Positions 3,951-64,000 of a stretch of DNA of 64,000 bases are shown here, one piece after another. Below the pieces are notes generated by a model. It saw only the letters and a program-made list of their open reading frames with translations. It was not told the DNA's origin and did not search any database. The stretch lies in NCBI GenBank assembly GCA_038087875.1, contig CM075989.1, positions 2,232,001 to 2,296,000 of the forward strand, written 5' to 3'. Positions within the stretch are counted from its first letter, which is position 1. The number at the start of each line of letters is the position of its first letter. A program made the position numbers and the translations under genes. The DNA is from Malacoraja senta. Taxonomy: Eukaryota.

Positions 3951-6900
3951 TCCAGAGATGCTGCCTGTCCCGCTGAGTTACTCCAGCATTTTGCGTCTAT
4001 CTTCGGTTTAAACCAGCATCTGCAGTTCCTTCCTACAACAATACTGCAAGTGTGGCCTCACCAACATCTTGAACAATTGCAACATAATGTACCGCTTCTT
4101 GTCCTCAGTGCTCTGACAAACGCAGAACAATGTGCTAAACACCGTCTTCACCACCCTATCCACTGTGATGGATGCCACTTTCAAGGTGCTGTGTATTTGT
4201 AGACCTAAGTCCCTCTGCTCTACAACGTGTCCCAGGACCCTGCCGTAAACTGCGAACGTCCTACGCTGTTTTGACTTTCCAAAGTGCAGTATCTCACACT
4301 TTTCTCAATTCTAAGCCATTTGCTATTCCTCAGCTATCAAACAGCTATCATTCAGATTCAGAAAAGACATTCAGATCCATTTAAAAACTGTCAGCAAATA
4401 CAAAATATAGAACACAGAACAGCACATGTATTGCACATGGCCATGCTGAACATAGATGTCAAGTTAAACCAATCTCCTCTGTCGCATGTCATCCATATAC
4501 CTCCATTTCCTGTATATCCTATATAAGCCTATTTGAAAGAAATAATCAAAAAATGAAAAAGTTAAGTTAACTAAAAAGCAAAAAAAATTAAAAACATTCC
4601 ATTCACGCTAAATATTTTCCAAAGTAATTTACTTCCCCTTGCTTCTTAATTGTATGTCCCAGAACTCCACAGTGGGTGGCACAGTGGTAGAGTTGCTTCC
4701 TTACAGCACCAGAAACCCGGATTCCATCCTGACTACGGGTGCTGTCTGTACGGAGTTTGTACGTTCTCCCTGTGACTATGTGGGTTTTCTCCGAGATCTC
4801 CGGTTTCCTCCCACACTCCAAAGGCGTACAGGTTGGTATGTTTATTGGCCTGGTATAATGGTGTGTGTAGGATAGTGCTAGTGTAGCGGGGTGATCACTG
4901 GTCGGCATGGACTCGGTGGGCCGAAGGGCCTGTTTCTGTGCTGTATCTTGATACTAAACTAAACTAAATCACTAGCGTCGGACTCGGTGACAGATCGGAC
5001 CTGACCTAGGGTGTGAGGTGAATCCCTAGTTAAAGCTGAGGGATTCCTGCAACACTCTCTCACACACGGCTCTCAGAATATGTCTGTGATTTGAATTGCT
5101 GAATGCCAGTGTCTCTGAGTGAAATCATCGACAGAATACAGCATGATCTGATTCACGTGATCCTGAATCTTTAAATAAAGCTGCAGGAACCATTCCCCAT
5201 GTACACTGAGAAGGGGAGTGTGATTGAGCACTGGTGCGTGCAGGTGGAAGGGGAACATAACCTTGTCCGTGGGCAGCAGTGGGAGCTGATGGAACCGTCT
5301 GCACTGAATATGAAGTGGGCAAGGCACAGGTCAGCTTTTGTGAACAAAACAAAACCAAGTGCCCCGTCCCACAGCACTGACTTGCATCCGGCAGCAGGAA
5401 TAAAAGACTGCAAGCTGTATTTACCCTCCAACCAGTTTAATCATTCTGCCCAGTTACAAATCTCTGCCTTTCTCCTCATTGTTATGTGGTTCAGAACTTC
5501 ATTGTGATTCATAACCTTCCTTGTCACAGCTTTCTGCTACATCTCGTGGGACACTCTTTAGTTCAGTTTAGAGATATAGTGGGGAAACAGGCCATTCGGC
5601 CCACCGAGTCTGGGCTGGCCAGCGATCCCCGTACCCTAACGGCGGCATGGTGGTGCAGCGTTAGAGCTACTACCTTATAGCACTTGCAGCGCAGGAGACC
5701 CAGGTTCGATCCTGACTACGGGTGCTGTCTGTGCGGAGTTTGTACGTTCTCCCCGTGAGCGCGTGGGTTTGCTCCGAGATCTTCGATTTCCTCCCTCACT
5801 CCAATGACGTACAGGTTTGTAGGTTAATTGGCTTGGTATAAATGTAAATTGTCCCAAGTGAGTGTAGGATAGTGTTAGTGTGTGGCGATTGTTAGTCAGC
5901 GTAGACTCGGTGGGCCGAAGGGCCTGTTTCACCGCTGCATCTCTAAACTAAAAACCGAACTGACACTATCCTCTGCAGTAGGGACTATTTACAATTTACA
6001 TTTTTTACCTGAGCCAATTAACCTGCAAACTTGCATGGCTTTGGAATGTGGGCGAGACCAGAGCACCTGAAAAAAACCCACGCAAGTCACGGGGAGAACG
6101 TACAAACTCCGTACCGACAGCACCCGCAGTCAGGATCGAACCCGGGTCTCTGTGAGGCAGCAACTCTACCGCTGTGCCACCATGCCGCCCACTCTTTATT
6201 GCAGGAGACAGTTCTCCAATAAGGCAACATTCATTCTGCCTCTTGACAACTCCTGTCCACTCAGGAAGATAGATGTTGTTGGTACTTTGCACCCTTAGCG
6301 TCCCAGGGTTGTCACCCACGGGACAAGTAAAATAGAGGAAACTACACCATGAGATGGTACACACCCTGCCGTGTGTTCACATCAATGGACATTATTGATT
6401 TTAGCAGCGACAATGTAACTGGCCAAGAGAACAGGAATCTTTTGCAAACCAGACAATGCATTGTATCGAAGATAGACACAAAATGCTGGAGAAACTCGGG
6501 TCAGGCAGCATCTCTGAAGAAAAAGAATAGATGATGTTTCGGGTCGAGACCCTTCTTCAGACAGAGGGGAGGGGAATTAGAGGCATGAAAAGGCACAGAA
6601 CCAAAATCAAAGCCAGCACCATTGATCCAGGAGAGGTGGAGCCCACAATGGTCCATTGTTGGCTGTGGAGGAGGTGATAACGATGGGATATGAACAGTGA
6701 AACTAGCAGGTTGACAAGGGAGTGGGACGGACGGAGAAAGAGGTAATGCAAGCGTTGCTTGAAATGAGAGATATTTAGGTTTAATAGATGTTTGGTGATC
6801 TGAACTGGAAATGAGTAACAAATCACAGAGAAAGGACATTTTTAATGAAGAGTGTTACAGACTCTGGTCCAATATAAATGCAAAATCAAACAGTCACACT

Positions 6901-9816
6901 GTTGTCCCTTCACACTCTAATGTCCAGCAGAAGAATGCACAGTTCCCCCTTTTTTTAAATAATAACATTACTCAGTTTTTGTTGTAATTAATTCACACCA
7001 TATTTGTTCCTGTCCCAGGAGTTGGGTTTAAATTGTCATTGTTGTTAAACATTTAGTTTGTAACACAAATTAAAATATCCTCCAAGTTTAGTGCCAGGAC
7101 AAAGTGAATTCACCATCTTCAAATATTGTTACTAATCGCAAATTTGTGTAGAAACCAAGAACTGCAGGCGTTGGTTAATACACAAAAGGACACCCAAGGC
7201 TGCCGGAAGGGAGAGTGGACGCTGGCGCGTTTTAGCAGCCGCTGCTCTCTCTTTCATATTGTGTTTTTGATTTTTGTTTTCGGATTGAATTCTGTCTTTA
7301 ATTTTTGTACTGGTGATGTCTTTACTATTTATTTCATTCCGCTTACATGTTTTTACACTATTTGTTAAATTTTGTAAGGTGTCCTTGAGACTCTTGAAAG
7401 GCGCCCATAAATAAAATGTATTATTATTATTATTGTCCTGCTAGTTTCACAGTTTGTATCTCTTCCACAGCCAACATTGGACCATTGTGGGCTCCACCTT
7501 TCGCGGGTCATCGGTGTTGGCTCTGATTTGTTCCGAACCTTTTCATATCTCTCGTTTCCCTGTCCCCTGACTCTCAGTCTGAAGAAAGGTCTCGACTTGA
7601 AACGTCACCTATTTCTTTTCTCCAGAGATGTAGGTCTGGCAGAATTGATGTGTAACTGTTTCCTTGCTCTCACAAGCCCGTGTCTCAGACTGAAGCAACA
7701 ACTACCACCCCCATGGAGCAGAGCCGGCATCCCCATCTGCCTTTGTAGCATGGGCTACAATCAATCACAGTGGCACCCTATGTCCAATCCTAACTCAGTT
7801 CTGCAGTTGCTGATCTACATGTGAATGATTTAATGATCTATTCCCTTCCTTCCCTGCTCCAAAGATTCACCAGGCCAATATTCCAACGCACAGAAGGTCA
7901 ACAAGTTCTTCTTCCCATCATCCTGCATGTGGATGCTCCAGATCTGTCCATGAAGGGAAATGTGTAGGGAGGAACTGCAGATGCTGGTTTACACTGAAGA
8001 TGGAGTAACTCAGCGGGACAGGCAGCATCTCTGGAGAGATGGAATGGGTAATGGTTCGGGTTGCGACCCTTCTTCAGAAAGACGAAGGGAAAAAGCGTCA
8101 CCCATTCCTTCTCAACAGAGATGTTGCCTGACCCGCTGAGTTACTCCAGCATTTTGTGTTTATGAATATAAAAAACGATGTTTTTATATGAACCCATGAC
8201 ATCTCAATCCCCATTTTACACTTAATGGGCTCTCGTTAACAGCAATGGTGTGACCCCCTCACCCTGCTACTCCGTTATTGCTGATTATGCAGCCTTTTTG
8301 TGTTCAAATTCCAAGTTTGCAACATCTCAGATTCCTAAATCTCCGTTAGAGAAAGAATCCTGATGCTGATACCATTTTTGAATATTTCCCTATTTCCTTT
8401 TCTTGCATGGAAGGTTTTCGACAATGTTCTGTAATTTCTTCATCTTCTGTTACCTGGATTGCTTCCTTGTTGCGATCTTGTCCAGTTCTGCTGCATGCCC
8501 AGCAATTAGCTCTCGTTGAGCTCCAGTACCCACTTCGCTTGTTTCTGTTTCAACCTCTTTACTCCCGAATGTCTTTGAAGACCCAACTTGACAATCGATC
8601 CCATCCAGTCAAGACTTTGTTCCATGTCTTCAGCTTCTCAAACTTCATTCCAGACTTCAGCCTTCCATCAAATAATGCAAAGGCACAGTACAAAGAAGGG
8701 ACCCTAATCAAAATGTCATCTGTACATCGTCCTCCACAGATGCTGCCTGACTCACCAAGTATTCCAGCACTTTTTTATTGCTAAATGCACAACTGCCAGG
8801 CATCCAATCTCTGGCAAATGCTGTTGGTTCCTGCACACACACACACACTAGGGACAATTTACAAAATGTACCAAAGCCAATTAACCTACAAGCCTGTACG
8901 TCATTGGAGTGTGGGAGGAAACCGGAGCACCCGGAGAAAACCCACGCAGGTCATGGGGAGAACGTACAAACTCCGTACAGACAGCACCCATAGTCAGGAT
9001 TGAACCTGGGTCTCTGGCGCTGTGAGGCAGCAACTCTACTGCTGCACCACTGTGACGCCCTCTTAAAGGCGGTGTGTACAAACTGCCAATGACCCACACT
9101 GACTGGGCATTGCTTGTTCATTGAGCTGAATGTTTGCCCTGACAATGAAGCTGGGTTTTCCACCAAGACTGCCGCTGTTTGGTCTTGAGGCCTGTGCCTG
9201 GTGAAGTGGGTCCCACCACAGCACCGAGTGCGTTGCTCAGGACCCGCACAGCCCCGTTTGCCTGCTCTACTCATGCCGGTGTCAAACCCAGAACTTTACC
9301 AATGAGAGTTCACTAGCCTGAACAAAGGGTCGCACGGTAGCGCAGCAGTAGAGTTAATGCCTTTACAGCGCCAGAGACCTGGGTTCGATCCTGACTACGG
9401 GTGCTGTCTGTACGGAGTTTGTACGTTCTCCCCGATACCAGGGTGGGTTTTCTCCGAGAACTTTGGTTTCACACTTCAGGATCACACAGACCAGACTGCC
9501 CACCATTGACTCCATCTACACTCCACGCTGCCTCGGAAAAGGGCAACCATAATCAAAGACTTATCCCAACCCGGTCATTCCTTCTTCTCCCTGCCCCCGT
9601 CGGGCAAAAGAAACGGAAGTCTGAAAGCGCGCACCACCAGCCTCAGGAACAGCCTCTTACCCTCTGTTATCAGGCTTCTGAACAGTCCTTCCATAAGCTA
9701 GTGTACTGTCCGATTCACCTCTACCCCTTGTAGACATTGGACTATGTGCATGGAACTGATGTGCTACAATGCTGAGAATAATATTCTGCACTCGGCATCT
9801 TCTCATTATTCTACCC

Positions 9817-11708
9817 CGTGTGTGGACGTGGTGTCGAAGGACGAGAAGCCGAAGCAAAGAAGTGGAAGCCAAATAACTGTAAGCGTACGAAGATGAAATG
9901 CCAACTAACCAAAAGGGTGGGACTCCTAAATGCAAACTAACCAAAAGGGTGGGACTCCCAAATGCAAACTAACCAAAAGGCTACTCTGCCGAAATGCCAT
10001 CTAACTGAAAGGCTGCGTCGCCTACAAGCCAACTCACAGAATGGCCGCTCAGCCGATAAGTCAAATAACGGACATGACGTCGCCGGGGGGGGCTGGACTT
10101 GTCAGCGATTGGTCCAGACCCCCACGTCCATCACATCATTGGCCGGTGGAGACGGGAGGGTGGGGATCATTTTCCCACACAAGCCATAGGTGACTGGGCA
10201 CTCTGAACCCGAGCACCAAGTTATAAGCAGTCCATGTGAAAGGACAGCACCTACCAACAATGAAGGCACTATGAAACCAGCTGCCTGCCGCAAGCCCTTC
10301 CCACAGGATGGCGTTTTAACAGCATTAAAAATCAAAAAAGAGTTACATTGATTTAAAAACCAAAATGTTCCATGTATCAATAGTTCTTACATTCGGGAAC
10401 CTGGTTAATTAAGTGGTGGGATTATTGCCCTGTCCTAACTATGCATTTGCTTTAGCCGGTGGTAACATCCATTCCATCCCTCCCTCACAAAGATGTGAGA
10501 TTTCATTAAGAGCACACTTGGATAAATAGATGCAAACGGCATGTAAAGCGTCTCTTCCATGCGCGCAATACATGAAGCCGATGAAATGAGACAACTGTCA
10601 CACCAAAGATAGACACAAAATACTGGAGAGTCTCAGTGGGACAGGCAGCATCTCGGGAGAGAAGGAATGGGTGGCGTTTCTGGTCGAGACCATTCAGACT
10701 CAGTCTTCAGGACTGAAGAATAGTCTTGACCCGAAACATCACCCATTCCTTCTGTCCAGAGATGCTGCCTGTTCCGCTGAGTTACTCCATCTTCGGTTAA
10801 AACAGTTTACAGATTATCTGGTGTTTTGTGCCTGGGAGCTTGTTGTGTGCGTTACGCAGGCAACCAGACGGTAATAGATAAATCGTTCTTCTTGTTGTCC
10901 GGGGGGGGGGGGGGAGTGGGAGGAGCTAAAATTGTTCATAGTCATGCACACTTGTCATCGGCCCGCCAGGGAATTTGTGTCCCCTCCCCCATGTTTTAAA
11001 AGCGATTTACAATGGCTGCCAATGCCCTGAGCCTTCTGTCCCCACGGCCGGGGTGGGTGTGAATCTGGATGGGGGGAGGGACCAGCCTGTCCCACACCTC
11101 TGCTCCACCCGGCACTGCCAACACACAGCCCATCACAGTGCGGCCACACGGGGGAGACGAGGCGGGGGGCGGCCGTCGCCGTGGGAGAGTGGGGGCTGTC
11201 CCGAGGGATGCGCTCCTTCGGCTGCTTACAACTTGGTGCTCGGGTTCAGAGTGCCCAGTCACCTATGGCTTGTGTGGGAAAATGACCCCCACCCTCCCGT
11301 CTCCATCGGCCAGTGATGTGATGGACGTGGGGGTCTGGACCAATCGCTGACAAGTCCCACCCCCCCCCCCCCCCCACGGTGATGTCATGTCCGTTATTTG
11401 ACTTTTCGACAGAGCAGCCATTCAGATAGTTGGCTTGTAGGCAACGCAGCCTTTCGGTGAGTCGGCGTTTTGGCAGAGCGGCCTTTCGGTGAGTTTGTTT
11501 TTAGGTGACGCAGCCTTTCGGTTAGTTGGCTAAAGGCAACCCTCCCTTTCGGTTAGTTTGCATTTAGGCGTCCCTCCCTTTCGGTTAGTTGGCGTTTCGG
11601 CTTCGTGCGCTTTCGGTTATTTGGCGTTTCAGCTTCTTTTCCGTTCGGTTATTTGGCTTCCACTTCTTTTCTTCGGCTTCCCGTCCTTCGACTCCACGTC
11701 CGGGTGCC
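9817..11708. mobile_element. Foldback, MULE-like non-autonomous DNA transposon
   Basis: ~400-480-bp inverted arms (9824-10230 / 11222-11701) with internal tandem subrepeats; 9-bp TSD attctaccc / attccaccc; interrupts a Rex/Babar-like 3' UTR. Confidence 0.75.
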
Positions 11709-21454: not shown

Positions 21455-21596
21455 AGTGAACGTGCAGGAGCACCGAGGCATTCGTCATCCCCACCACGTT
21501 CTCCGCGATGCACGTCAGAAGCTTGCCGTTGTCCTCTGGGTCGATGTTAAATAGGGTCAGGTTCACAGCAGAGACGGTGGTCAGGTTGTTGTTGGT
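21455..21596 (-). CDS. NTRK3: NTRK3/TrkC-like exon, second half of Ig-like domain 1 (TNNNLTTVSAVNLTLFNIDPEDNGKLLTCIAENVVGMTNASVLLHVH)
   Basis: 142-bp exon with a long CT-rich tract, ccag acceptor and gtaagt donor. LTCIAENVVGMxNASV is TrkC-like rather than TrkA/B-like. Confidence 0.92.
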
Positions 21597-22019
21597 CTGG
21601 CACACAGGGAGAGAGGGAAGGGGGGAGAGAGAGAGGGAGAGAGAGAGAATTCCTGACTGACCTCACAAAGAGAGAGGAGGAAGAACAATGGCGGACCCGG
21701 CTGGGGGGGAGGAAGGACAATGGTCAATGGGGTGGGAGGGGAGAACAGGGGACAATGGGGACCTGGCGTGGGGGGAGGGGGAACAAAAGAGGGAGCCGGC
21801 GTGCACCTTTGCAGCGCCATAGGTGGCCGCTGTTTGTATACATCGGGTATGCAAGCAGAGAATTTCACTGTGACAATAAAGTTTCCCATTCAATTCCATT
21901 CCAAAGCAAACACTGAAAGGCCTGAACATCTCGGTGATCCAGGGATATTTAATGAACGCCAGATCTTGGCAGAAGATGCTCTGAGTGGAGTTCCTTCATT
22001 CTTCAGAAATTTGCCTCAA

Positions 22020-35858: not shown

Positions 35859-36557
35859 AGGGCCTGTCCCACTTACGTGTCCTTGTCACGCAAATTACGC
35901 GACCTCGTGGTCGCGTTGAGGCGCACGGGAATCGTATGGCCGCACGGGGCTGGTCCCACTGAGAAGCGCGGAGGGGTATGTAGTTGTGCGCGACATCGCG
36001 CGGGGCTCCGATATTTTTGTAGCGAACGAAATCTTCGTGCGTAACTGACGGCCTGTCGCGTAACTGACGGCCAAAGTGGGACAGGCCCAAGCCCCTGGCG
36101 CGATGCAACATCTCACCTGCAACAGCAGCAGAAGCAGGCAAACGATAGCCGAGCTCGGCCTGGGGCTCACGGCCGTTGCTGTCCATATCCGCCCCCACTT
36201 CTACTCCCAGAGTGGGGCCAAGAAAATTGAAGACGGACACAAAATGCAGGAGTAACTCAGCGGGACCGGCAGCATCTCTGGAGGGAAGCAATGGGTGACG
36301 TTTCGGGTCGAGACCCTTCTTTCAGACTGAAGAAGAGTCTCGACACGAAACGTCACCCATTCCTTCTCTCCAGAGATGCTGCCGGTCCCGCTGAGTTACT
36401 CCGGCATTTTGTGTCCATCTTCAAATGACGTCACACGCTCCAGACGGCTGTGCGGTCGAATGAAGTCGCGCGCGACCTTTGCGGGACCGTTGCGGTTCAA
36501 CGCGACCACGAGGTCGCGTAATTTGCGTGCCAAGGACACATAAGTGGGACAGGCCCT
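35859..36557. mobile_element. PIF/Harbinger-type MITE
   Basis: ~60-bp TIR starting agggcctgtcccactta; TTA TSD; interrupts a CR1 RT segment (GMMSKFADDT, minus strand). Confidence 0.85.
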
Positions 36558-38815: not shown

Positions 38816-40361
38816 TTCCTGACCTGCTGAGTTACTCCAGCACTTTGTGTTTATCTTCAGTATAAACCAGCATCTGCAGTTCCTCCGTACACATGTGCCG
38901 TGACTAGTCTGTGGTCAGCTTTACTAATATATAAACCAGTCCCCAAATGTTTGGAGGCTTTGAAGCCATTTAGGCTGGGAGCAACATTGATTTGTTTCTA
39001 GGCTATTGCTGGGTGGTCTGCCCTTTTAAAATGTTAATGTTTCCATTCAGTGGCTTTGATGCAACTAAATGGCTTCTTCAGCTATTTTAAAGGGCAGTTA
39101 GAAATCGCCCACATTGTTTTGCATTTAGCTTTATGCTGTAGACCACCCTCATGGGCAGTTTAACGCAGTTTTGGGAATTACTTATCTGCCCTCCCCCTAC
39201 TGACAATGTTTGTTGATAAATGAGGGGTAACAAAGTGGAAATAAATGCGTCCGCTTTCACCTGAAGGCGATCTCGCCCCACGGAGGAATAGGACACTGAG
39301 TGAGGAAGAGCACTCATTAATTGGACTGAAGATAGACACAAAAAGCTGGAGTAACTCAGCGGGTCAGGCAGCATCTCTGGAGAAAAGGAATAGGTGACGT
39401 TTCGGGTCGAAACCCTTCTTTGGACTGGTCACCTATTCCTTTATCTCCAGAGATGCTGCCTGAGCCACTGAATTACTCCGGCATTTTGTGTCTATGTTTG
39501 GTATCGACCAGCATCGACAGTTGGGACTGGGAATTCTGCTGGAGGTAAGGCTCAGTTCGTGGGAAGAAATTCATTTTCAGTCATGGGAAAAGGAAACAAG
39601 GGATATAGGACAAATGAATGAAGGATTTGCAGAAAACAAAGATGATCAAGGAAAGATGGAGTCCACCATTAATTAGACGGTTCGGTTTGGATGTAATCGC
39701 GTGGTGGGCCTGGTGTTCACCATACATGTTTGTAAATCACCTCTAATGAAGCAAAGTCTCAGTTAGAGAATATGTGGAGAGTATGTTTATTATTTATTAG
39801 GAAAAAATATATTAATTATGTTAACAAGACGTAATTTATATGGGCAGATTGGGTTAATTAACATGCAGGATGTTCTTTCATTCAAAGGCAAACTCATTAC
39901 TGACTAATCTAAAAATAAAAAGCTGGCTCAGATCTCAACAGTGCCTGGGCAAAGCTGTGTCCCGAGGGATGCTCACAGCTTGATGTCAAGAGCATTCACC
40001 TGACCCTTTCTCCACACGATCGCTCATTAATTGTCTGAGCAACTATTGAGCCCTGTGCTGGGATACAGCATTGAATGCACTGTTACAAGTGTTACAAGTC
40101 TGAAGAACGGTCTCGACCTGAAACGTCACCCATCCCTTCTCTCCAGGGATGTTGCCTGTCCCCGCTGAGTTACTCCAGCTTTTTGTGTCTACCAACAAGT
40201 GTTACAATGCAGATTCCCATTCTTCAGACTGGGTAGGGATATGGGAAACGAGAGATACAGATGATGTGGAGAGATGAAGCACAATGAATGAACGATATGC
40301 AAAAAAGTAACGATGATAAAGGAAACAGGCCATTGTTCGCTGTTTGTAGGGTGAAAACGAG

Positions 40362-41243
40362 GGATTGGACAGGCTTGATGCAGGAAAAATGTTCCCGATG
40401 TTGGGAGAGTCCAGAACCAGGGGTCACGATTTAAGAATAAAGCGGTAGGCCATTTAGGACTGAGATGAGGGAAACCCTTTTCACCCTGAGAGTTGTGAAT
40501 CAGCGCCTCTACTTCCTGAGAAGATTACGGAGAGTCGGTTTGTCAAGGAGGACTCTCTCTAACTTCTACAGGTGCACAGTAGAGAGCATGCTGACCGGTT
40601 GCATCATGGCTTGGTTCGGCAACTTGAGCGCCCTGGAGAGGAAAAGACTACAAAAAGTAGTAAACACTGCCCAGTCCATCACCGGCTCTGACCTCCCCAC
40701 CATCGAGGGGATCTATCACAGTCGCTGCCTCAAAAAGGCTGGCAGTATCATCAAGGACCCACACCATCCTGGCCACACACTCATCTCCCTACTACCTTCA
40801 GGTAGAAGGTACAGGAGCCTGAAGACTGCAACGACCAGGTTCAGGAATAGCTACTTCCCCACAGCCATCATGCTATTAAACCTGGCTCGGACATAACACT
40901 GAACACTATATATTTATAGAATGCCTTGTAGTCAATGCCTACTATGTTCTGTTGTCCTGAAACAAAGCAAGAATTTCATTGTCCTATCAGGGACACATGA
41001 CAATAAACTCACTTGAACTTGAATCTGTGGAAAGTCAGTGGAGGCCAGTTTGCTGGATGTTTTCAAGAGAGAGTTACAGTAGATTTAGCTCTTAGGACTA
41101 ACGAAATCAAGGGATATAGGGAGAAAGCAGGAGCAGGGTACTGGTGTAGGATGATCAGCCATGATCATATTGAATGGTGGTGCTGGCTTGAAGGGCTGAA
41201 TGGCCTACTCCTGCACCTATTTTCCATGTTTCTATGTTTCTAT
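40362..41243 (+). mobile_element. CR1 3' fragment interrupted by a Rex1/Babar fragment
   Basis: gttgtgaatc|tgtgg split at ~40500 / ~41025. Confidence 0.8.
40501..41020 (+). mobile_element. Rex1/Babar-like LINE 3' end
   Basis: QRLYFLRRLRR...FYRCTVESMLTGCI...RFRNSYFP; aataaa plus (acttga)n tail. Related pieces at 46597-47010, 62950-63368, 9480-9816/11717-11810, 20439-20690 and 43440-43720. Confidence 0.75.
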
Positions 41244-42408: not shown

Positions 42409-45400
42409 TTACACTACCCTACACACACTAATGGCAAAGTTGCAATTATACAAACCCAATTAACCTACAAACCTGTACCTCTTTGGAGGGTGGGAGGAAA
42501 CCTGAGCACCTGGAGAAAACCCACGTGGTCACGGGTAGAACGTACAAACTCCGTACAGACAGTACCCGTGGTCAGGATCGAACTTGGGTCTCTACGGCTG
42601 GAAGGCAGCAACTCTATCGCTGCGCCACCCACAGTGCCTGTATTATGTATTTAAATGCCAGAATGAACATTTATTGACTACAAATTGATACCCAATACTG
42701 ATCACTTCTTGGGACTTGACAGATGGGACTCAGGCGCTGCACCACATCCACTGGGCTTTTCCCCAGAATGACCAGTGATGGTGGAAACTCCACTGGGAAC
42801 TTCTCAGAAAGGTTGTGCTGCTTGTGCAGCAGATGCAATTGATGTGCAAAATAAGATGCATTTCTCTCCAAGCATCGCTCCTTTGAGCAAAGTGGTCTTT
42901 ATTCTGGGATCCAACCATCATTCACCACGCCTGGCATGTTGGAAGCACTGCACCAGACCCGAGAGCCACGAAGATAAATTCTGCTTACGATGAACCTTCT
43001 TACCCCTTTACCTGTGATAGACACTCTCACCACTGGCCTCCTGCCCCTGAGCCCAATCCCTCCCTATGCCCCTGGTAGTGCTGCTGCCTCACACCGTCCG
43101 AGACCTGGGCTCGATCCTGACCTCCAGTGCTGTCTGTGTGGAGTTTGAATGAATAAATTATACTTTATTTGCACGTTGCATGTTGCACGTTCTCCCTCTG
43201 ACCACGTGGGCTTCCTCCTGGTGCTCAGTTTCCCCGCACTTCCCAAAGACACGCGGGTTTGAGGGATGATTGGCCTCTGTAAATTGCCCCCTTGTGTGTA
43301 GGGAGTGGATGACATGGAACTAGTGTGAACGAGCATGGACTCAGTGGGCCGAAGGGCCTGTTTCCATTCTGTATCTCCAAACCTATAACTAACGCCCCCA
43401 CCCCCCTCCCATCTGACAAAGTGTGGCCTTAGCCCTCCACACCTCCAGATTCAGGGACTGCTTCTTCCCAGCTGTTATCAGGCAGCTGAATCATCCTACC
43501 ACAACCAGAGAGCAGTGCTGAACTACTATCTACCTCATTGGTGACCCTCGGACTACCCTTGATCGGACTTTGCTGGCTTTACCTTGCACTAAACGTTATT
43601 CCCTTATCATGTAGATGGCTCAATTGTAATCATGTATTGTCTTTCTGCTGACTGGATGGCACGCAACAAAGAGCTTTTCACTGTACCTCAGTACTCAGGA
43701 CAAGAAACTAAACGGAACTATAATACCTTGGAGCTTGGGTGCTACTGAAACTCTGCAGTAGCAAGTCCAAAATGATCCTTCATGCTGCAAGCAATAATCA
43801 TACAGTGTGCCATCAGGGAATGCTGGATCCTCCAGTCAAGAGGATTTATCCCTAACAAACAAAATCTAACGGTAACCACGGCCTAATTATCTCCCTACCT
43901 TAATTGGCAATGCTCATTTACAAGCTCAGTTTACATGCATTGTGGGACATTAAACACTGCCCGTTTAGTAAGGAGACAGCATACAGTCTGTGCAGCCTAT
44001 AAACCAATGCAGCCTTAAACTTCACTGAGATTCTGCTATATCTTGACAAAATGAAAAACAAAATGAAGCTGCATTTCCACATTCACCTTGCAACCTGCTG
44101 GAGATTGCTCTAAAGGCACGGCCGGGCCTGTGTTCATTTGCTGGTTTGTGGGACTGTGCTATGTAAAATTAATTAGAAATCACCCTCAAAAGTGTTTAAA
44201 TCCTAAAAGTAAGTTATTGGTTATGTAACACTTTGCCATGAAGTTCAAAATGTATGGAGATATGCTGTATGTAACATACTAGATACATACTAGATACAGA
44301 TTCTAGAGATGTGTCCGAACAGTGAGCCAGAATGTTGAAACAAGGAACTGCAAATACTGGTTTACACCAAAGGACACAAAGGGCCAGGCAGCATTTCTGG
44401 AGAACATGGATAGGTGACGTTCCGGGGCGAGACCCTTCTTCAGATTAATCATAGTGGGGGGGGGGGTGGGGAGGGGGGGGGGGAGAAAGTGGGAGAGAGG
44501 AGATGCAGGACAGCATGGTTTCCACAATTAAAATTGTCCATCAGAAAAGTCCCGACCTGAAATGTCACCAGGCTATCCATGTTCTCCAGAGATACTAACT
44601 GGCCCACTGAGTTACTCCAACAATTTATATCCAAAACAGTTGGATGTCTGAACACAGACAAGTCTCGGGCTGAAGTCACCCGGCATCCGTATCCGCACAC
44701 TTTATGATTAGATAGACACAAACTGCTGGAGTAACTCACACCGACGAAGGGACTCTACCAAAACATCACCCATTCCTTCTCTCCAAGGATGCTGCCTTCC
44801 CCACTGAATTACTGCAGCAATTTGTGTCTGTCTTCGGTGTGAAACAGCATCTGCAGTTCCTTCCTACACTTTTAGTTTAGTTTAGAGATTCTCTCTCTCA
44901 CCTGCTGGTATTCAGGATGGCTGTGGAGACCTGATCTGGCAGCAACTAATTTAACAAAGGCTTTGTCCCACTGCTCAGGATGCCCACATTAACACGCCAT
45001 GCTGCCTAGCTGCACATTGAAGCTTTGGGGAGCTTTCAACTGGAGTTGAATAAAACCCGCACAGGAAGGTCAGCACCAAATGTGAAATGAGCCCAGATAC
45101 TGAACACATGGCAAGGCAGCGAGCGCGTGGAGTGACTGCGCACCAGGCTCTATAATATCCCTACACACCAACTTCACACAGTACCAATGATCAAAACAAT
45201 TAGGCAGAGGATGGCATCTGCAATTTATTAAAGCATCGGATTGCAATCGTAAAATTGCCTTGATTTAATTATTTTTGTAAAGGTCAGGCAATGAGGATTA
45301 GACTCACAGTGTGATTGCAACGAGAAAAGAAGTAAATGAATTGTGAGGACGACGGCATTCATCTTAATCCTCCTCTCCGCACTCCTGCTGCTCACCCCAA

Positions 45401-45448: not shown

Positions 45449-45648
45449 NNNNNNNNNNNNNNNNNNNNNNNNNNNNNNNNNNNNNNNNNNNNNNNNNNNN
45501 NNNNNNNNNNNNNNNNNNNNNNNNNNNNNNNNNNNNNNNNNNNNNNNNNNNNNNNNNNNNNNNNNNNNNNNNNNNNNNNNNNNNNNNNNNNNNNNNNNNN
45601 NNNNNNNNNNNNNNNNNNNNNNNNNNNNNNNNNNNNNNNNNNNNNNNN
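45449..45648. other. Assembly gap (200 N)
   Basis: N run. Confidence 1.
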
Positions 45649-50211: not shown

Positions 50212-50366
50212 CGCACTGCGTGACGTTCATGTGGGAGAGGAGGATGTTGGTCGTCTCCGTCCGGCAGTAGAGCTGCTGATGCCCCAGCTGTGCTTCACCC
50301 GCATCCTGCCACAGCTGGATCCAGCGGATGTCACAGCTGCAGTTGAACAAGTTCCTCACCAAAACC
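50212..50366 (-). CDS. NTRK3: NTRK3/TrkC-like exon, LRR C-terminal cysteine cluster (VLVRNLFNCSCDIRWIQLWQDAGEAQLGHQQLYCRTETTNILLSHMNVTQC)
   Basis: 155-bp exon with ttctcctccag acceptor and gtgcgt donor, phase 2 to phase 1. FNCSCDIRWxQLWQ and LYC...MNxxQC motifs are characteristic of TrkC. Confidence 0.92.
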
Positions 50367-54954: not shown

Positions 54955-55080
54955 TCACCTGAAATTAGAGAAGTCAATGTTCATACCACTGGGGTGTAAA
55001 CTACACAAGCAAAATATGAGGTGCTGTTCCTCCAATTTGCGCTGGGCCTCACTCTGACAATGGAGGAAGCCCAGGACAGA
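54955..55080 (-). mobile_element. Penelope-like GIY-YIG C-terminal fragment
   Basis: Reverse complement encodes VLGFLHCQSEAQRKLEEQHLIFCLCSLHPSGMNIDF. Confidence 0.75.
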
Positions 55081-55084
55081 CAGG

Positions 55085-58145: not shown

Positions 58146-59098
58146 ATGGCAGAGATGCGGGTTCAATCCTATCCTGCTGCTTAGGTTCCTCTCATGTTCC
58201 AAAGACCTGCAGTTTGCAAAGTTAATTGGTTGCTGTAAGTTGCACCTTGAGTGCGGATGAGTGGTAGAATTTGTGGAAAGTCAATGAAAGTGTGGAGAGA
58301 ATAAAAATGGGATTATTGTAGGATTAGTGTACAGGGGTGGTTGGTGGTCAGTGTGGACTCAGGCCAAACGGGCGATGTATGTGCTATCTGCCTATGTCCG
58401 TGATGACCACTGTCCACGCTGGGAACACCGTGCCGCGTTTATCGCAAATATAGACACAAAGTGCTGGAGCAACTCAGCGTGTCAGGCAGCATCTCTGGAG
58501 GAAAAGAATGGGTCTTGATTCGAGTCAGGACCGTCGCCTATTATTTTTCCGTACAGAGATGCTGCCTGAACCGCCGAGTTACTCCAGTTACTTTGGTCGT
58601 AACCAGCAACTGCAGTTTTTTGTGTCTCCTTTCTGTTCATCACAGTTTCACTTCCAACTGTTTCACGGGGTTTCAACACCAGCTTTGTGGAATGTTTCAG
58701 CATTCAAGAATATTAAAGGGAGTGACATAAACAGATCAACATCACTGGATTGTAATAATAAATAAACAGGAATTGGTATTGGTGTTAGGAAGAGAATATC
58801 AGAACATTAGTCTGAGAATCAAAGGACTTTCCTTTAGGAAGGAAATGAGGAGGAATTTCTTCAGTCAGAGGGTGGTGAATCTGTGGAAATCATTGCCACA
58901 GACAGCTGTGGAGGCCAAGTCAGTGGGTATTTTTAAGGCAGAGATTCATGATTAAGACGTGTCAGGGGTTATGGGGAGAAGTCAGGAGAATGGGGTTGGG
59001 AGGGAAAGATAGATCAGTCATGATTGAAAGGTGGAATAGACTTGATGGGCCGAATGGCCTAATTCTGCTCCTATCACTTATGAACTTATGAAGAATTA

Positions 59099-59525
<427 letters not shown>

Positions 59526-59530
59526 CTTAC

Positions 59531-59599
59531 AGCTGAGAGAGACGAAGAGTCCTGAAGGGCTGCCAAGACAAGCTGGTGAGGCGATTGCCCGAGAGATTG
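59531..59599 (-). CDS. NTRK3: NTRK3/TrkC-like exon, leucine-rich repeat (NLSGNRLTSLSWQPFRTLRLSQL)
   Basis: 69-bp exon with tttgcag acceptor and gtaagt donor. Peptide resembles TrkC NLSSNRLTTLSWQLFQTLSLREL. Ends in phase 2 (ct), joining g of the next exon to give Leu. Confidence 0.9.
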
Positions 59600-59693
59600 C
59601 TGCAAATTCAAGAAGAAAGGAAAAACATTGTTACTGACTTTCAGTCGACTGTCTTTGATGGACTAATGTCAGAAACTAATATCTTTTCAGAGG

Positions 59694-59838
59694 ATAGACA
59701 CAAAATGCTGGAGTAACTTAGCGGGACAGGCATCATCTCTGGAGAGAAGGAATGGGTGACGTTTCAGGTCGAGACCCTTCTTCAGACTGACAGTTTTTGT
59801 GTCTAAGGTTTAAACCAGCACCTGCAGTTCCTTCCTAC
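59694..59838. mobile_element. Short Penelope-derived insertion with minus-strand hammerhead-like core
   Basis: 15-bp TSD atatcttttcagagg at 59679-59693 and 59839-59853. Confidence 0.8.
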
Positions 59839-60471
59839 ATATCTTTTCAGAGGCATCAGCTGAATATGCCATCAGTCATTATATTAACACTTTGACAATA
59901 CTTACACATTAACAATCAGAAGAACCTCGCTTTGTTCAACTCGTTCATTGGAGTTAGATTAGAATACTTTTGTCCTCTTTATTAGCAGAGATCCCATCCC
60001 CAGAAGATGCCCAGCTATGTCCAAAGGTGCGAGACCTTTGTTTAATTTTTTTTAATTAATTACGGGTGAACAGGTATAGGAAGCAAAGGTGAAAATATTC
60101 AAAACATGTAGCCTGGCACCAAAGGACCAGCCAGTCCGGTGAATAGAATTATCAACATTAACTTTAGACTTTAGAGATGCAGCATTGAAACAGGCCCTTC
60201 GGCCCACCAAGTCCATGCTGACCAGCGACCCCCCCGTATACTAGCACTGCACTCGAGGGACAATTTACAATTTACAGAAGCCACTCAGCCTACAAATCTG
60301 TGCGTCTTTGGAGTGTGGTAAGAAACTAAATCCACTGGAGAAACCCCACGCGGGTCACAGGGAGAACATACAAACACCATACAGACAACACCCATCGTCA
60401 GGATCGAACCCGGGTCTATGGCGCTGTAAGGTAGCAACTCTACAGTCGGACCCTAATGTCTGCCAACATGT

Positions 60472-60510
60472 CAGTCTGATGAAGGGTCTCGACCCGAAAC
60501 GTCACCCATT
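60472..60510 (+). ncRNA. Minimal hammerhead ribozyme-like motif in a PLE-derived repeat
   Basis: CTGATGA (60476-82), A, stem II GGGTC-TC-GACCC, GAAAC, GTC. Helix I is only ~2 bp. Confidence 0.55.
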
Positions 60511-61739
60511 CCTTTTCTCCAGAGATGCTGCCTGACCCGCTGAGTTACTCCAGCATTTTGTGTCTATCTTTTCTAACTTGACTTCTTTGGTGAGGTGCAG
60601 ATAGACAGACACCATCTCTGCTAGCGGAGTGGTTGAAAGAAGGGAATAGTGTGCAGAGGGAGGCTGTGCCGCCTGTGGCCAGGGTTTACAGTGGTGGGCA
60701 GCTGAATGTCCCGGCACAGGCAGTCAGCAGATGGCCAACCCACAGGAATGACTTCAGATCTGAAGCCTGACTCCTCGAGTCACAGTGTGCGAGGTGTCCG
60801 AGGGCTACTAGACCCCAACCCATCCACACAGCTCTTGTGATGTTTCTGGTCGACACCTTCCTTCAGACGGAGACTCTCAACTGCAGATGCTGGTTTACAC
60901 CGAAGTTGGACACAACAAGCTGGAGTGACAGGCAGCATCTCTGGAGTTAAGAATGGGTGACGTTTTGGGTCGAGACCCTTCTTCTAAAGGGCCTGTCCAG
61001 CTGAGATACTCCAGCTTTTTGTGTCTATCTTCAGTGTAAATCAGCATCTGCAGTTTTTTCCTAAACACAGCTTTAGTTCTCCACAAAGTGGGGACAATAA
61101 CAAATATGCAGAGCTCAGGCAACATTTGAGGAGAAGACTTTTTAAGTGGTTTTGCAATTGCTCAGCTTAAGTTGAAGAGACCCCTGCCTGATCTTTCACC
61201 TTTCTCTGTAGACAGGCGTATCCTCCAGACCAGAGCGGACGCCGGAAGGGTCTCGAACTGAAACGTCACCCATTCCTTCTCTCCATAGATGCTGCCTCAC
61301 CCGCTGAGTTACTCTAGCATTTTGTGTTAGCTCTCTGTCCTGCTCTGTTTACACAGTCTTTACTGCTCTTTCATTGCTTTGAGAGAGATCTGTAATGATG
61401 ATAAAGTGCTCAGGGACCTTCACTTCACACAAACCCTGGATCAGAAGCGATTGAAGCTGCAAAATAGGTTCAAGTGAGAGCACCTCAAGGAACAGCGGGT
61501 GTCTCATCAGAAGCCAATAGTTTGTACTTTTCTTTTATATATATGTATCCAATTGTTTCCACTGTTGCTGATAAATAACGCATACTGGTTATTGATGCCA
61601 GCACCGGGCTCCCTCACATACAAACACATCAGATTGCAGAGAACACTTATATTCAAAGTGAATTAAAAACCTCTTTGCTTCCCCGAAGCTTTCTTTCAAC
61701 ATTGGACAGTTGTCAGAACATACATTGCCAAAGCAATCC

Positions 61740-62217
61740 CGTCAGCTGATGTCAGCTGATCTACATCGGTGAGACCAAGCGTAGGCTTGGCGATCGTTTC
61801 GCCGAACACCTCCGCTCGGTCCGCATTAACCAACCTGATCTCCCGGTGGCCCAGCATTTCAACTCCCCCTCCCATTCCGAATCCAACCTTTCTGTCCTCG
61901 GCCTCCTCCATGGCCAGAGTGAGCACCACCGGAAATTGGAAGAGCAGCTCCTCATATTCCGCTTGGGCAGTCTGCACCCTAGCGGCATAAACAATGACCT
62001 CCAATTTCCGGTAGCCTTTGCTGTCTCCTCCCCTTCTCAGCTCTCCCTCAGCCCTCGGGCTCCTCCTCTTCCTTTTCTCTCCTTTCTTCTCTCCACCCCC
62101 CCCCCCATTCCACCCCACATCAGTCTGAAGAAGGGTTTCGGCCCGAAACGTTGCCTATTTCCTTTGCTCCATAGATGCTGCTGCACCCGCTGAGTTTCTC
62201 CAGCACTTTTGTCTACC
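61740..62217 (+). mobile_element. Penelope-like element 3' portion: GIY-YIG endonuclease C-terminus plus pseudo-LTR
   Basis: YIGETKRRLGDRFAEH...VAQHFNSPSH...RKLEEQLLIFRLGSLHPSGIN, followed by a pyrimidine tract and the repeat unit found throughout the window. Confidence 0.88.
62121..62158 (+). ncRNA. Minimal hammerhead ribozyme-like motif downstream of GIY-YIG ORF
   Basis: CTGAAGA-A-GGGT-TTCG-GCCC-GAAAC-GTT; stem II variant with a UUCG loop. Confidence 0.55.
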
Positions 62218-62446
62218 CGTCCATTGGCCCCCACCTTGAGATAGTGCCCCTACTGGTCACCCAGGGACTAGCTGGCCTTATTGGTTGATTGAATTGATTG
62301 ATTGAAAGATACAGAATGGAAACAGACGTACGGCCAATCGATAACCTGTTCACTGTTTGAAGAAGGGTCTTGACCCGGACCGTCACCTCCTCTCCAGAGA
62401 TTCTGCCTGATCCGCTGTTACTCCAGCATTTTGTGTCTATGTTTCG

Positions 62447-62834
62447 CAGCGCTTCCACACCTCAACATTTTTTTTTTTCCTGAAATAGAATTCCAAATTA
62501 CCTGGAATTTGATAGTATTTCCTGGCCCGGTAAGTTTCCCCAACTGCGCACGCGCGTATATCGGGCCCACTGCGTACATGCGGGGGATCGGCGTCCCTAC
62601 CGCATCACCGGCACCGTTTGAATTGTAACGTGGCTGACGGGCCTCCCCCAACTGCGCACGTCGTAAATATACAGGTACATACTTTTTCCCGCAAATCATC
62701 CCGCGGGCCTGATTGGACCCTTTGGCGTCTCCCTGCGCATGCGCAGTGGGCCCGGATTTCATTTCCCGAAAATTACCCGAAGGCAACCAGAATTTCCCGA
62801 ATTTCAGGTAATTTCCTTCAAAGTGGAAACACTG
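62447..62834. mobile_element. Putative hAT-type MITE
   Basis: cagcgcttccac / gtggaaacactg termini; degenerate 8-bp TSD atgtttcg / atctttag. Confidence 0.55.
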
Positions 62835-63369
62835 ATCTTTAGTTCTATGTTAACACTTTCTCATCCACTCTTTACACACTGCAGGCAATTTTCAGAGGCC
62901 AATTAACCTACAAACCCGCACGACTTTGTGATGTTGACCTGCGGAAGCGAGGGCGTTCCTACCCTACCCTCATCAACACAGCTGTTGTAGAGATAGTCAA
63001 CGGATTCAAGTTCTTGCGCATCCACATCTCCAGCCATCTAACCAGGTCCCTTCACACTGATGCAGTGATCAAGAAAGTGCATCAGCATTCTTACAGCATA
63101 TTTACAACATATTTAGATGGCTGAGGAGATTCGGCATGTCGATGAAGATTCTCTCGAACTTCAACGTTGTGCCAGAAAGAAAGTATACTGATGGGATGTA
63201 TCTTAGCCTGGTATGCCAACTGCTCTGCTCTTGTCCAAGAGTTTGGTGTACCTGCAGAAAGTGGTGAACACAGCCCGCTCCATCGCAGGCTCCTCACTTC
63301 ATCCCATGCCTGCCACCCCGGCCATTCCCTTTCTCTCTTCTACCTCCTGGGAGAATATACAGGCTTTAA

Positions 63370-64000
63370 TGGGCCTGCCCCACTTAGGTGACTTTTTACT
63401 CGACTGCAGGAGACTTTACCGTCGCCACATGGTCGCCACATGTTCGCGGGTAGTTGCCGGGGATTTGCCTTCATGGCCGTGAGGATTTCCCACATTCTGG
63501 GAACTGGTCGTGGCCTCATTACGGTCGCCGAGAATTTTTCAACATGTTGAAAAATTAGCGGCGACTAGAATGAAGTCGCCATGGAGATTAGCGAGAATTC
63601 TCGAGCCGTAGGTGGCTCGAGTGGGGTTACCAGGAGGTCGAAGGTTCTCGGAAGCTCTCGTAGGTTGCTGACCGGTGAACTTCATTGGCTCATTGGGGGG
63701 AAAAAAGGTAAGCAGTAGTTTTCAGAACCAAGGAACGACCAGTAATGTTAAATGTCCGCCGAACTTCACAGCCGTGTATTTCTGGCTTCTTAAAAGTTGT
63801 CTCTACTCCTTCTCCCTTCCTTCTCCCGCCTTCTCCCCCCTCTCCTGTCCTCTTTTAAAGGACTTACTGTACACTGTGCTTTAGCCGTCTTAATTACAAC
63901 GCCAACCTTCCTGTTCATCGCGGTGTGTGTCTGTATCACCTTGGCTTTGCACGTTGGGAATTTTTAAACAGCGCTCCCCCGCTGGCCCCAGCCTTTGCGA
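63370..64000. mobile_element. Left part of a PIF/Harbinger-type non-autonomous element (runs off window)
   Basis: taa|tgggcctgccccacttagg terminus; internal ttttcaacatgttgaaaa palindrome is shared with the 38277 MITE. Confidence 0.6.

What the first reader, a model, noticed from the sequence alone, without database searches (positions are those of the whole stretch)
60472..60510. Dispersed minimal hammerhead-ribozyme cores carried by a Penelope-derived repeat family
Seen: the motif CTGA(A/T)GA-A-[stem II]-GAAAC-GTH recurs on both strands, with intact or decayed copies at about 6535-, 7578+, 10713+, 36297-/36327+, 39396-, 40100+, 44415-, 59757-, 60476+, 60958-, 62125+ and 62358+. Stem II differs between subfamilies but keeps its pairing (GGGTC-TC-GACCC vs GGGT-TTCG-GCCC). 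The 62125 copy directly follows a GIY-YIG ORF. Established: Penelope-like elements carry minimal type I hammerheads with a palindromic helix III (here ACGT) that work as dimers. Inference: minus-strand copies would be transcribed in NTRK3 pre-mRNA. Caveat: helix I is only ~2 bp here, so activity is uncertain.
Basis: partly seen in the sequence, partly recalled or inferred. Interest (0 to 1): 0.7.

Follow-up and report, generated by a model that had tools for sequence, protein, structure and literature searches.

The report
Penelope-element hammerhead relics in skate intron
The repeated motif is the known miniature self-cutting RNA (hammerhead) that Penelope-like jumping genes carry in their end-pieces, here scattered densely and mostly decayed through introns of a skate-like TrkC gene, so it is real but ordinary.

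Summary
All 13 listed sites are pieces of one ~130-nt repeat (45 pieces, 6.3% of the window). Only 4 keep core, helix II, palindrome and helix I (7579+, 59785-, 60476+, 62125+; none in 200 shuffles). The repeat is the 3' pseudo-LTR of a Penelope/Poseidon retrotransposon: one copy follows a GIY-YIG remnant by 110 nt, 12 of 15 adjacent pairs are head-to-head, 6 of 30 insertions have 13-19-nt target duplications, and 3' ends fall in two groups, like the PLE 'tail'. The motif fits the 2014 min-HHR consensus (PMC4209133). Corrections: helix II is 4 bp plus tetraloop; the focal copy is antisense to the Trk transcript, and only 59785- is intact and sense. Nothing here shows activity: no covariation, no robust excess core conservation and CpG erosion of G12, helix I populated under 2% in models. 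Best reading: retrotransposition debris carrying a dimer- or protein-dependent ribozyme that mattered, if at all, in the master element. The scan noted the same kind in six windows of shark-like genomes. Only the density stands out.

The parts
60472..60572 (+). Focal solo pseudo-LTR cassette (short 3' end, no tail); antisense to the Trk transcript
   Evidence: 3% from the majority of copies; a contig of a second organism (run X2, record 18) runs from 60541 into the unique flank, suggesting a shared, fixed insertion
60474..60475 (+). Helix I 5' strand (2 nt), pairs with 60504-60505
   Evidence: pair probability at most 0.018
60476..60483 (+). Hammerhead core C3-A9 plus the extra nucleotide between 9 and 10.1
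   Evidence: consensus in PMC4209133 Fig. S3
60484..60495 (+). Helix II, 4 bp with tetraloop, G10.1-C11.1 closing pair
60496..60503 (+). G12-A15.1, palindrome 60499-60502 (dimer helix III), C17; predicted cut after 60503
61750..62014 (+). C-terminal half of a Penelope/Poseidon GIY-YIG endonuclease, 5'-truncated, frameshift near 62000, stop at 62012-62014
   Evidence: 65% identity over 84 aa to RT-EN protein P0004
62013..62120 (+). Pyrimidine-rich spacer (85% C+T) between endonuclease stop and hammerhead
62121..62217 (+). Second-subfamily cassette with intact hammerhead (C3 at 62125, UUCG loop, GUU triplet, U-G first pair of helix I)
   Evidence: the same subfamily features are encoded in independent records P0027 and P0028
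59687..59789 (-). Only intact copy in sense to the Trk pre-mRNA (C3 at 59785, G-U at 10.1/11.1); predicted cut about 155-160 nt upstream of the exon that starts at 59600
59795..59837 (+). Inverted tail piece, head-to-head partner of the 59785 copy; the unit is flanked by a 15-nt target-site duplication
7575..7630 (+). Fourth descriptor-positive copy (weak helix II); shares about 115 nt of upstream sequence with the 6563- copy
36225..36424 (.). Head-to-head pair joined at the palindrome at the 5' border of the core; folds as one long hairpin; neither hammerhead intact
   Evidence: (-82 kcal/mol, z -9.5)
40097..40202 (+). Near-intact copy (10.1 pair broken) with 13-nt target-site duplication
6463..6563 (-). 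Copy with intact core and helix II but palindrome lost by a CpG change
39325..39522 (.). Head-to-head pair, core decayed
10595..10791 (.). Head-to-head pair, both hammerheads decayed
44342..44866 (.). Cluster of four pieces (two head-to-head pairs), decayed
60879..61063 (.). Head-to-head pair, 5' core missing
62355..62448 (+). Decayed copy (three core substitutions)
54958..55083 (-). Second endonuclease C-terminal remnant, with no cassette after it
59529..59600 (-). TrkC-like LRR exon with AG/GT boundaries
50213..50362 (-). TrkC-like LRR C-terminal exon
21456..21599 (-). TrkC-like first Ig domain exon (second half)

Best explanation
The motif is the minimal type I hammerhead (min-HHR) in the pseudo-LTR of a Penelope/Poseidon retrotransposon of a skate-like cartilaginous fish. 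The element's reverse transcriptase-endonuclease nicks the target and starts cDNA synthesis at one of two sites about 90 and 120 nt downstream of helix II (inferred from the two groups of 3' ends and from the anole element). It usually stops or folds back near the 5' border of the hammerhead, leaving 100-130-nt solo or head-to-head cassettes (shown as a pattern; cause inferred). The hammerhead is copied as a passenger on uncut RNA. In the master element it is probably a weak ribozyme that needs a second copy (palindromic helix III) and/or the element's protein (established for relatives, not tested here). Dispersed copies then decay, fastest at CpG sites that include G12 and the palindrome, and most likely do not cut host RNA at a rate that matters.
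For: Endonuclease remnant 110 nt upstream of the 62125 copy, 65% identical to RT-EN protein P0004 with a C-terminal GIY-YIG domain. Same order (RT-EN, about 130 nt, hammerhead) in metagenome locus L020. Predicted zebra-shark protein P0005 runs on from the endonuclease into a peptide that the hammerhead frame would encode. 12 head-to-head, 2 tail-to-tail and 1 direct junction among 15; 13-19-nt target duplications at 6 of 30 units against 1 of 292 random sites. 3' ends: 20 of 45 at model columns 96-110, 17 of 45 at 121-129, matching the 30-40-bp optional tail that marks two RT start sites in PAc. 28 of 45 pieces reach column 10 or less, about 3 of 45 (by eye) begin near the cut site. Motif fits the published consensus including the extra nucleotide, G10.1-C11.1 and palindrome; 2-bp helix I occurs in D. 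virilis, Culex and Oikopleura rows. Only 4 of 28 core-reaching pieces are intact; G12 is A in 6 of 27 and 16.2 is A in 9 of 27. No covariation. Helix I probability at most 0.018; palindrome duplex -1.7 kcal/mol. Relatives: monomers inactive and dimers weak; PAc hammerhead cuts only with protein and is dispensable for insertion in vitro; 8 of 9 Xenopus dimers did not cut.
Against: No full-length element is in the window, so the link of the main subfamily to an RT is by homology with the 62125 subfamily. With trimmed alignments the non-CpG core is better kept than the downstream part (17/253 vs 167/1355, p 0.0095), which could reflect selection; the signal goes when alignments are extended (37/278, p 0.69) and one downstream 7-nt block is as well kept (10/183). 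Folding models ignore tertiary contacts, Mg2+ and proteins. A protein search did not place the cassette at the start of an RT ORF (2 hits among 7 candidates, neither an RT), unlike PAc. Inactivity of the copies is inferred, not measured.
Confidence: 0.85

Rival explanations
1. A fraction of the dispersed intact copies do cut host RNA, in trans-dimers between abundant copies or when the element's protein binds the cassette, so sense intronic copies such as 59785- nick pre-mRNAs (here 155-160 nt upstream of a TrkC-like exon).
For: 59785- keeps every core base and lies sense in a Trk intron. PAc's hammerhead is switched on by the element's protein. Density is high (45 pieces in 63.6 kb), which raises the chance of partners. 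One Xenopus dimer of nine cut very well.
Against: No depletion or enrichment of sense copies (22 minus vs 23 plus; intact 1 vs 3, too few to test). In models the core of 59785- is paired to the downstream pyrimidine tract (mean unpaired probability 0.11-0.17) and helix II is not formed. One direct-orientation neighbour among 15 junctions, so no cis dimers. No read ends at the PAc cut site in anole RNA-seq.
Confidence: 0.08
2. The cassette is an independent non-autonomous element (SINE-like or retrozyme-like) that is itself transcribed and re-mobilised by the PLE enzyme, rather than the 5'-truncated end of full elements.
For: 44 of 45 pieces have no endonuclease sequence upstream; 5' ends pile up at the hammerhead border; summed contig depth over cassette bins exceeds that over endonuclease bins about 4- to 40-fold for the two best copies (not a copy number). 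pLTRs alone can be mobilised in trans; animal retrozymes derive from pLTRs.
Against: No tandem arrays and no shared internal body: only one pair of copies shares non-cassette, non-LINE upstream sequence adjoining the core (6563-/7575+, about 115 nt). Severe 5' truncation with inversion is the normal PLE pattern. This rival changes the route of spread, not the nature of the motif.
Confidence: 0.2
3. The motif is conserved for something other than catalysis (for example a splice or RT-recognition signal) and in this lineage, with helix I down to 2 bp, it no longer cuts even in the master element.
For: Helix I is at the short end: 32 of 63 distinct metagenome contexts have 3 bp or more. HHR mutants do not affect PAc insertion in vitro. 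A pyrimidine tract and CAG precede the core, where the D. virilis intron ends.
Against: Both subfamilies keep all core bases and a 2-bp helix I (U-A or U-G, G-C). The extended D. virilis motif, also with a 2-bp helix I, cut weakly in vitro.
Confidence: 0.2
4. Chance resemblance to a hammerhead.
For: Rfam gave no hammerhead match at E up to 1; the hammerhead fold is not the predicted minimum.
Against: 0 of 200 shuffles give a descriptor hit; the motif sits where PLE hammerheads sit and fits features of the published consensus that were not in its descriptor.
Confidence: 0.01

Closest known systems
Minimal hammerheads (min-HHR) in pLTRs of metazoan Penelope-like elements (Cervera and de la Pena 2014, PMC4209133)
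   Same: Type I order, CUGANGA plus one extra nucleotide, G10.1-C11.1, GAAA followed by a 4-nt palindrome with no loop III, pyrimidine-rich 5' flank, position 3' of the endonuclease, mostly solo dispersed copies, some close pairs on opposite strands.
   Different: Helix II is 4 bp (short for the class), helix I only 2 bp, 3' flank pyrimidine-rich rather than AU-rich; no cartilaginous fish among the 56 rows of Fig. S3; density in this window (63 intact per Mb, 95% interval 17-161) would exceed the 4,000-9,000 per genome reported for coelacanth and Xenopus if it holds genome-wide.
Poseidon element PAc of Anolis carolinensis (Frangieh et al. 2024, PMC11167929)
   Same: C-terminal GIY-YIG, hammerhead in the pLTR, two 3' end points with the far one about 115-120 nt after the start of stem II, copies made from uncut RNA.
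   Different: In PAc the ORF begins at stem II; here that could not be shown. PAc was assayed; this one was not.
Non-LTR retrozymes of animals (bioRxiv 10.64898/2026.07.22.740005)
   Same: Non-coding, pLTR-derived, type I hammerhead; reported from one chondrichthyan.
   Different: Retrozymes are head-to-tail tandem units; here copies are solo or head-to-head (1 direct junction of 15).
Drosophila virilis Penelope HHR (in PMC4209133)
   Same: 2-bp helix I; possible 3' splice site at the 5' end of helix I.
   Different: D. virilis has a 6-bp bulged helix II and a longer palindrome; its intron is demonstrated, the one here is only suggested by sequence.

Membership tests
PLE minimal hammerhead (min-HHR) | Core CUGANGA ... 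GAAA ... NUH in type I order | tested here: met
   4 copies pass the descriptor, 0 of 200 shuffles
PLE minimal hammerhead (min-HHR) | Extra nucleotide between 9 and 10.1 and G10.1-C11.1 pair | tested here: met
   A in 25 of 28 pieces; G10.1 in 23 of 28; C11.1 in 17 and U in 9 of 28
PLE minimal hammerhead (min-HHR) | Palindromic 15.1-16.1, no loop III | tested here: met
   Present in all 4 intact copies; G16.2 changed to A in 9 of 27 pieces
PLE minimal hammerhead (min-HHR) | Helix I of 2-5 bp | tested here: met
   2 bp, the lower limit of the published set; not predicted to form unaided
PLE minimal hammerhead (min-HHR) | Covariation in helices within a genome's families | tested here: inconclusive
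   20 of 45 pieces aligned; covariation score 0.114 vs 0.111 shuffled, 193/500; copies too related and decayed
PLE minimal hammerhead (min-HHR) | Self-cleavage as dimer or with protein | not testable with these tools
   No assay; only contigs were available
Penelope/Poseidon EN+ retrotransposon | C-terminal GIY-YIG endonuclease after RT | tested here: met
   Remnant 65% identical to the C-terminus of P0004, which has RVT_1 then GIY-YIG; no RT in the window itself
Penelope/Poseidon EN+ retrotransposon | pLTR with hammerhead 3' of the endonuclease | tested here: met
   110 nt after the stop
Penelope/Poseidon EN+ retrotransposon | 5' truncation, head-to-head inverted pLTRs, optional 30-40-bp tail, variable target duplication | tested here: met
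Penelope/Poseidon EN+ retrotransposon | RT phylogeny in the Penelope/Poseidon clade; no Zn-finger linker of Neptune/Nematis | not tested
   No RT in the window and no tree built; the clade name rests on domain order and on recalled family traits
Penelope/Poseidon EN+ retrotransposon | pLTR includes the first codons of the ORF | tested here: inconclusive
   40-aa query found 2 non-RT proteins among 7 candidates
Non-LTR retrozyme | Two or more head-to-tail units each with a complete hammerhead | tested here: not met
   1 direct junction of 15, not between two intact hammerheads
Canonical type I hammerhead (Rfam families) | Score against Rfam hammerhead models; helix I about 6 bp with loop contacts | tested here: not met
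   No hammerhead among 10 matches at E up to 1; helix I 2 bp

The most novel reading that the evidence does not exclude
Skates and rays carry tens to hundreds of thousands of intact minimal hammerheads (36,000-343,000 if this window's density holds over 2.13 Gb), more than reported for other vertebrates, and the sense intronic ones become live when the Penelope protein or a partner copy binds, cutting host pre-mRNAs such as this TrkC-like transcript whenever the element is expressed.
Probability: 0.06. Interest if true: 0.75.

Novelty: new member of a known kind. Interest (0 to 1): 0.2.

Why it matters
As found, it extends a 2014 class to skates and shows how it decays (CpG loss at G12 and the palindrome). 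The open question of the field, what PLE hammerheads do in vivo, is not answered here, but a genome with this many copies of graded age would be good material: strand bias in introns, 5'-end positions and cyclic-phosphate sequencing could test activity with real statistical power. If dispersed copies were cut in a protein-dependent way, a retrotransposon protein would act as a transcriptome-wide ribozyme switch.

Tried and rejected
Rfam scan: no hammerhead family among 10 matches at E up to 1; the rest are low-complexity or chance. Whole genome not held, so no genome-wide count. Viral-contig scan: 0 matches. Metagenome-contig scan: 122 loci, none matching the cassette beyond the hammerhead itself (3 weak hits); used only as a comparison set. 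Sequencing runs: no RNA holder listed; the four runs laid (4 of 24 listed) are contigs, which cannot show RNA ends, and table 6 was empty. Summed depth (5.4e7 over 60473-60569 vs about 23-40 on unique flanks in X1) is not a copy number by the tool's own caution; I use it only as agreeing with a very abundant family. RNAalifold: no structure on the 20-copy hammerhead alignment; on 14 longer copies 3 pairs of helix II and a 4-bp downstream helix, with no compensatory change. An alternative fold pairing the core and helix II 5' strand with the downstream pyrimidine tract appears in single-copy models, but z-scores are not significant and it is not in the consensus; rejected as a conserved switch. 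Idea that the cassette is the ORF start: not shown. Idea that the cut site defines copy 5' ends, as with R2 ribozymes (recalled): rejected, about 3 of 45. Splicing from the endonuclease stop to the core or to the downstream AG: no such joint among the 15 shown, 9,938 joints not shown, so untested. Upstream Trk exon in 59601-64000 and the first-half Ig exon in 21600-50200: not found. Lunse et al. 2017 not held. Literature searches listed no paper devoted to hammerheads in cartilaginous fish; most subscription papers and the bioRxiv supplements were not visible, and the 2026 preprint's tables on its one chondrichthyan may bear on copy number. Earlier-findings look-ups by sequence and by place were empty.

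Full report
Observation. The focal motif is at the stated place: core at 60476-60482, an extra A, a 4-bp helix II with a tetraloop (60484-60495), GAAA, the ACGT palindrome (60499-60502) and C17 at 60503, with two base pairs of helix I. A descriptor demanding all of these finds 4 copies in the window (7579+, 59785-, 60476+, 62125+) and none in 200 dinucleotide shuffles; a looser pattern finds 5 against 0.17 expected. A profile search finds 45 pieces covering 3,981 of 63,600 non-N bases, 23 on plus and 22 on minus. Rfam has no hammerhead match; I take that as the models needing longer helices (inference).

What the repeat is. It is a cassette of about 130 nt that begins 4 nt before the core. The copy at 62125 follows, after a 108-nt stretch of 85% pyrimidines, a truncated and frameshifted ORF whose closest named relatives are predicted proteins of skates, sharks and rays (84% to a Leucoraja erinacea protein). 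It is 65% identical over 84 aa to the C-terminus of P0004, which has RVT_1 followed by GIY-YIG. The organism is therefore taken to be a skate-like cartilaginous fish (inference). The same order, RT-EN then a hammerhead about 130 nt after the stop, is in metagenome locus L020 (52% over 451 aa to P0004), and zebra-shark protein P0005 reads on into a peptide consistent with the hammerhead frame (protein only, bases not seen). [quoted passage not shown] 3' ends form two groups, 20 of 45 at model columns 96-110 and 17 of 45 at 121-129, with 8 shorter. The model ends at 129, but two independent records stop matching at that point too. Inverted 5'-truncated pLTRs and an optional 30-40-bp tail are described PLE traits (passages of 10.1101/2021.04.23.441226; passages of PMC3846280). 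In the anole element PAc the tail lies between two RT start sites, one 111-118 nt after the start of stem II (PMC11167929, parts 1-2 of 4 read); the far end here is at about the same distance. 28 of 45 pieces reach column 10 or less, and only about 3 of 45 begin near the cut site (by eye), so the templates were mostly not cut at the hammerhead. Several head-to-head junctions lie at the TCAG-N-CTGA palindrome at the 5' border of the core, in line with the self-priming proposed in PMC3846280 (inference).

Match to the known motif. Cervera and de la Pena (PMC4209133; parts 1-2 of 4 of the text and parts 1-2 of 3 of the supplement read) defined the min-HHR of metazoan PLEs with the same core, extra nucleotide, G10.1-C11.1 pair and palindrome, found mostly as solo motifs from truncated elements, some as close pairs on opposite strands. 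Three rows of their Fig. S3 species set (D. virilis, Culex, Oikopleura; also two other Drosophila) have a 2-bp helix I; none of the 56 rows is a cartilaginous fish. In my metagenome set (122 loci, selected by a core pattern; 96 of 123 matches with helix II of 4 bp or more; 63 distinct helix-I contexts) 32 of 63 have 3 bp or more against 3 of 63 in a shifted control, and 14 have 2 bp. So helix I is real in the class and short here. Two subfamilies are present: the common one (CUCG loop, GUC triplet, U-A first pair) and the endonuclease-linked one (UUCG loop, GUU triplet, U-G first pair), the latter confirmed at protein level in two other records.

Host gene. Three minus-strand exons of a Trk receptor map at 59529-59600, 50213-50362 and 21456-21599; the best solved-structure match is the NT-3 receptor (E 5.5e-13, against 0.006 for the NGF receptor). 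Whether this is NTRK3 or a close paralogue was not settled. Exons for the N-terminal part were not found in 59601-64000, so the cassette cluster there lies in an intron or around an undetected exon. The focal copy, 62125 and 7579 are antisense to this transcript. Only 59785- is intact and sense; its cut site would be 155-160 nt upstream of the LRR exon.

Activity. Nothing here shows it. In 20 aligned copies 80% of cells pair (78.6% shuffled, 60/500) and the covariation score is 0.114 against 0.111 (193/500), although slid controls pair far less (9-51%). Non-CpG core positions differ in 17/253 cells against 167/1355 downstream (p 0.0095) when alignments are trimmed, a comparison biased toward the core because it lies at the trimmed end; with ungapped extension it is 37/278 (p 0.69), the untrimmed 3' half gives 9/130 vs 201/1629 (p 0.068), and a downstream 7-nt block is as well kept (10/183). 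CpG positions of the core differ in 17/81: G12 is A in 6 of 27 and 16.2 is A in 9 of 27. Modelled helix I probability is at most 0.018 in five copies and three context lengths; helix II of the focal copy falls from 0.75 in 40 nt to 0.05 in 140 nt; the palindrome duplex is worth -1.7 kcal/mol. Head-to-head pairs fold into long hairpins that bury both cores. Published assays agree: monomers inactive and dimers weak, PAc's hammerhead cuts only with protein, is dispensable for insertion, and shows no RNA-seq ends at the site, and 1 of 9 Xenopus dimers cut (bioRxiv 10.64898/2026.07.22.740005, parts 1-3 of 5 read). Lunse et al. 2017, on dimer cleavage, I know only from its title and a review's passages (PMC6765202).

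Abundance. Four intact copies in 63.6 kb is 63 per Mb (95% interval 17-161); over the 2.13 Gb estimated for little skate (passage of PMC10115646; not necessarily this species) that is 36,000-343,000, and about 1.1-2.0 million pieces. This is an extrapolation from one repeat-rich window. Contig depth in run X1, which matches unique flanks with 0-1 differences, is of order 1e7 over the best cassette copies and 1e6 over the endonuclease against 23-40 on unique flanks; the tool warns that this is no copy number. The 2014 paper called 4,000 (coelacanth) and 9,000 (Xenopus) remarkable, with a different descriptor.

Mechanism, shown and inferred. Shown: motif, PLE linkage, insertion anatomy, decay pattern, strand relative to the host gene. 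Established for relatives: internal RT start at the tail, weak dimer- or protein-dependent cleavage. Inferred: that the cassette is the minimal cis unit for the RT-endonuclease, that copying ends or folds back at the 5' border of the hammerhead, and that dispersed copies are practically inert.

Novelty. A new member of a class described in 2014. Seven literature searches listed no paper devoted to this family in cartilaginous fish, but the 2026 preprint includes one chondrichthyan with PLEs and retrozymes (its supplements were closed), and six earlier notes of this scan report the same kind in shark-like genomes (unchecked notes, not support). Interest 0.2.

Noticed in passing
window 24423-28295 (-) and 29670-33427 (-): Two decayed tyrosine-recombinase (DIRS-like, name recalled) retroelements: RT, a Dam-like methyltransferase match and integrase matches.
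   Followed up: partly
window 59086-59525: About 440 nt of CA/TG repeat that begins a few bases after the donor site of the Trk LRR exon; on the sense strand it is a long UG tract beside a 5' splice site, a type of sequence known (from recall) to bind splicing regulators.
   Followed up: no
window 45449-45648 and 20239-20438: Two 200-N assembly gaps; the Trk exon for the first half of Ig domain 1, expected between 50213 and 21599, was not found and may lie in the first of these.
   Followed up: partly
12 head-to-head pairs, e.g. window 36225-36424: Each forms a long double-stranded hairpin on either strand (-82 kcal/mol, z -9.5 for one), so the Trk pre-mRNA would hold many possible ADAR or Dicer substrates, like inverted Alu pairs (analogy recalled).
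   Followed up: no
cassette columns 36-55, e.g. window 59735-59755 (-): A pyrimidine tract ending in AG just after the cut site looks like a 3' splice site in all subfamilies; in the sense copy it lies about 135 nt upstream of the true Trk acceptor. A predicted Leucoraja protein (P0028) has the cassette in mid-sequence, by exonisation or model error.
   Followed up: partly
window 62009-62123 (+) and 54958 (-): A possible donor at the endonuclease stop in both remnants and a pyrimidine tract plus CAG just before the core suggest an intron ending at helix I, as in D. virilis Penelope. Untested.
   Followed up: partly
window 60170-60440: A tRNA-derived SINE-like repeat (HE1-like by recall) lies just upstream of the focal copy and is also very deep in contigs.
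   Followed up: no
window 3946+, 37578+, 37885-: Three cassettes directly follow the 3' microsatellite tail of a LINE (shared upstream 370-450 nt): insertion preference or co-mobilisation.
   Followed up: no
window 50646-52133 (+), 1492-3096 (-), 40441-40893 (+): LINE fragments: an AP-endonuclease ORF, an RT C-terminal ORF with zf-RVT, and a piece that matches Pfam ALKBH8_N, probably a repeat-derived match.
   Followed up: no
L020:7-1530 and L019 (same contig): Near-complete PLE with RT-EN ORF and hammerheads at both sides, 4-bp helix I, in a metagenome contig; a cleaner test case for activity than the skate copies.
   Followed up: partly
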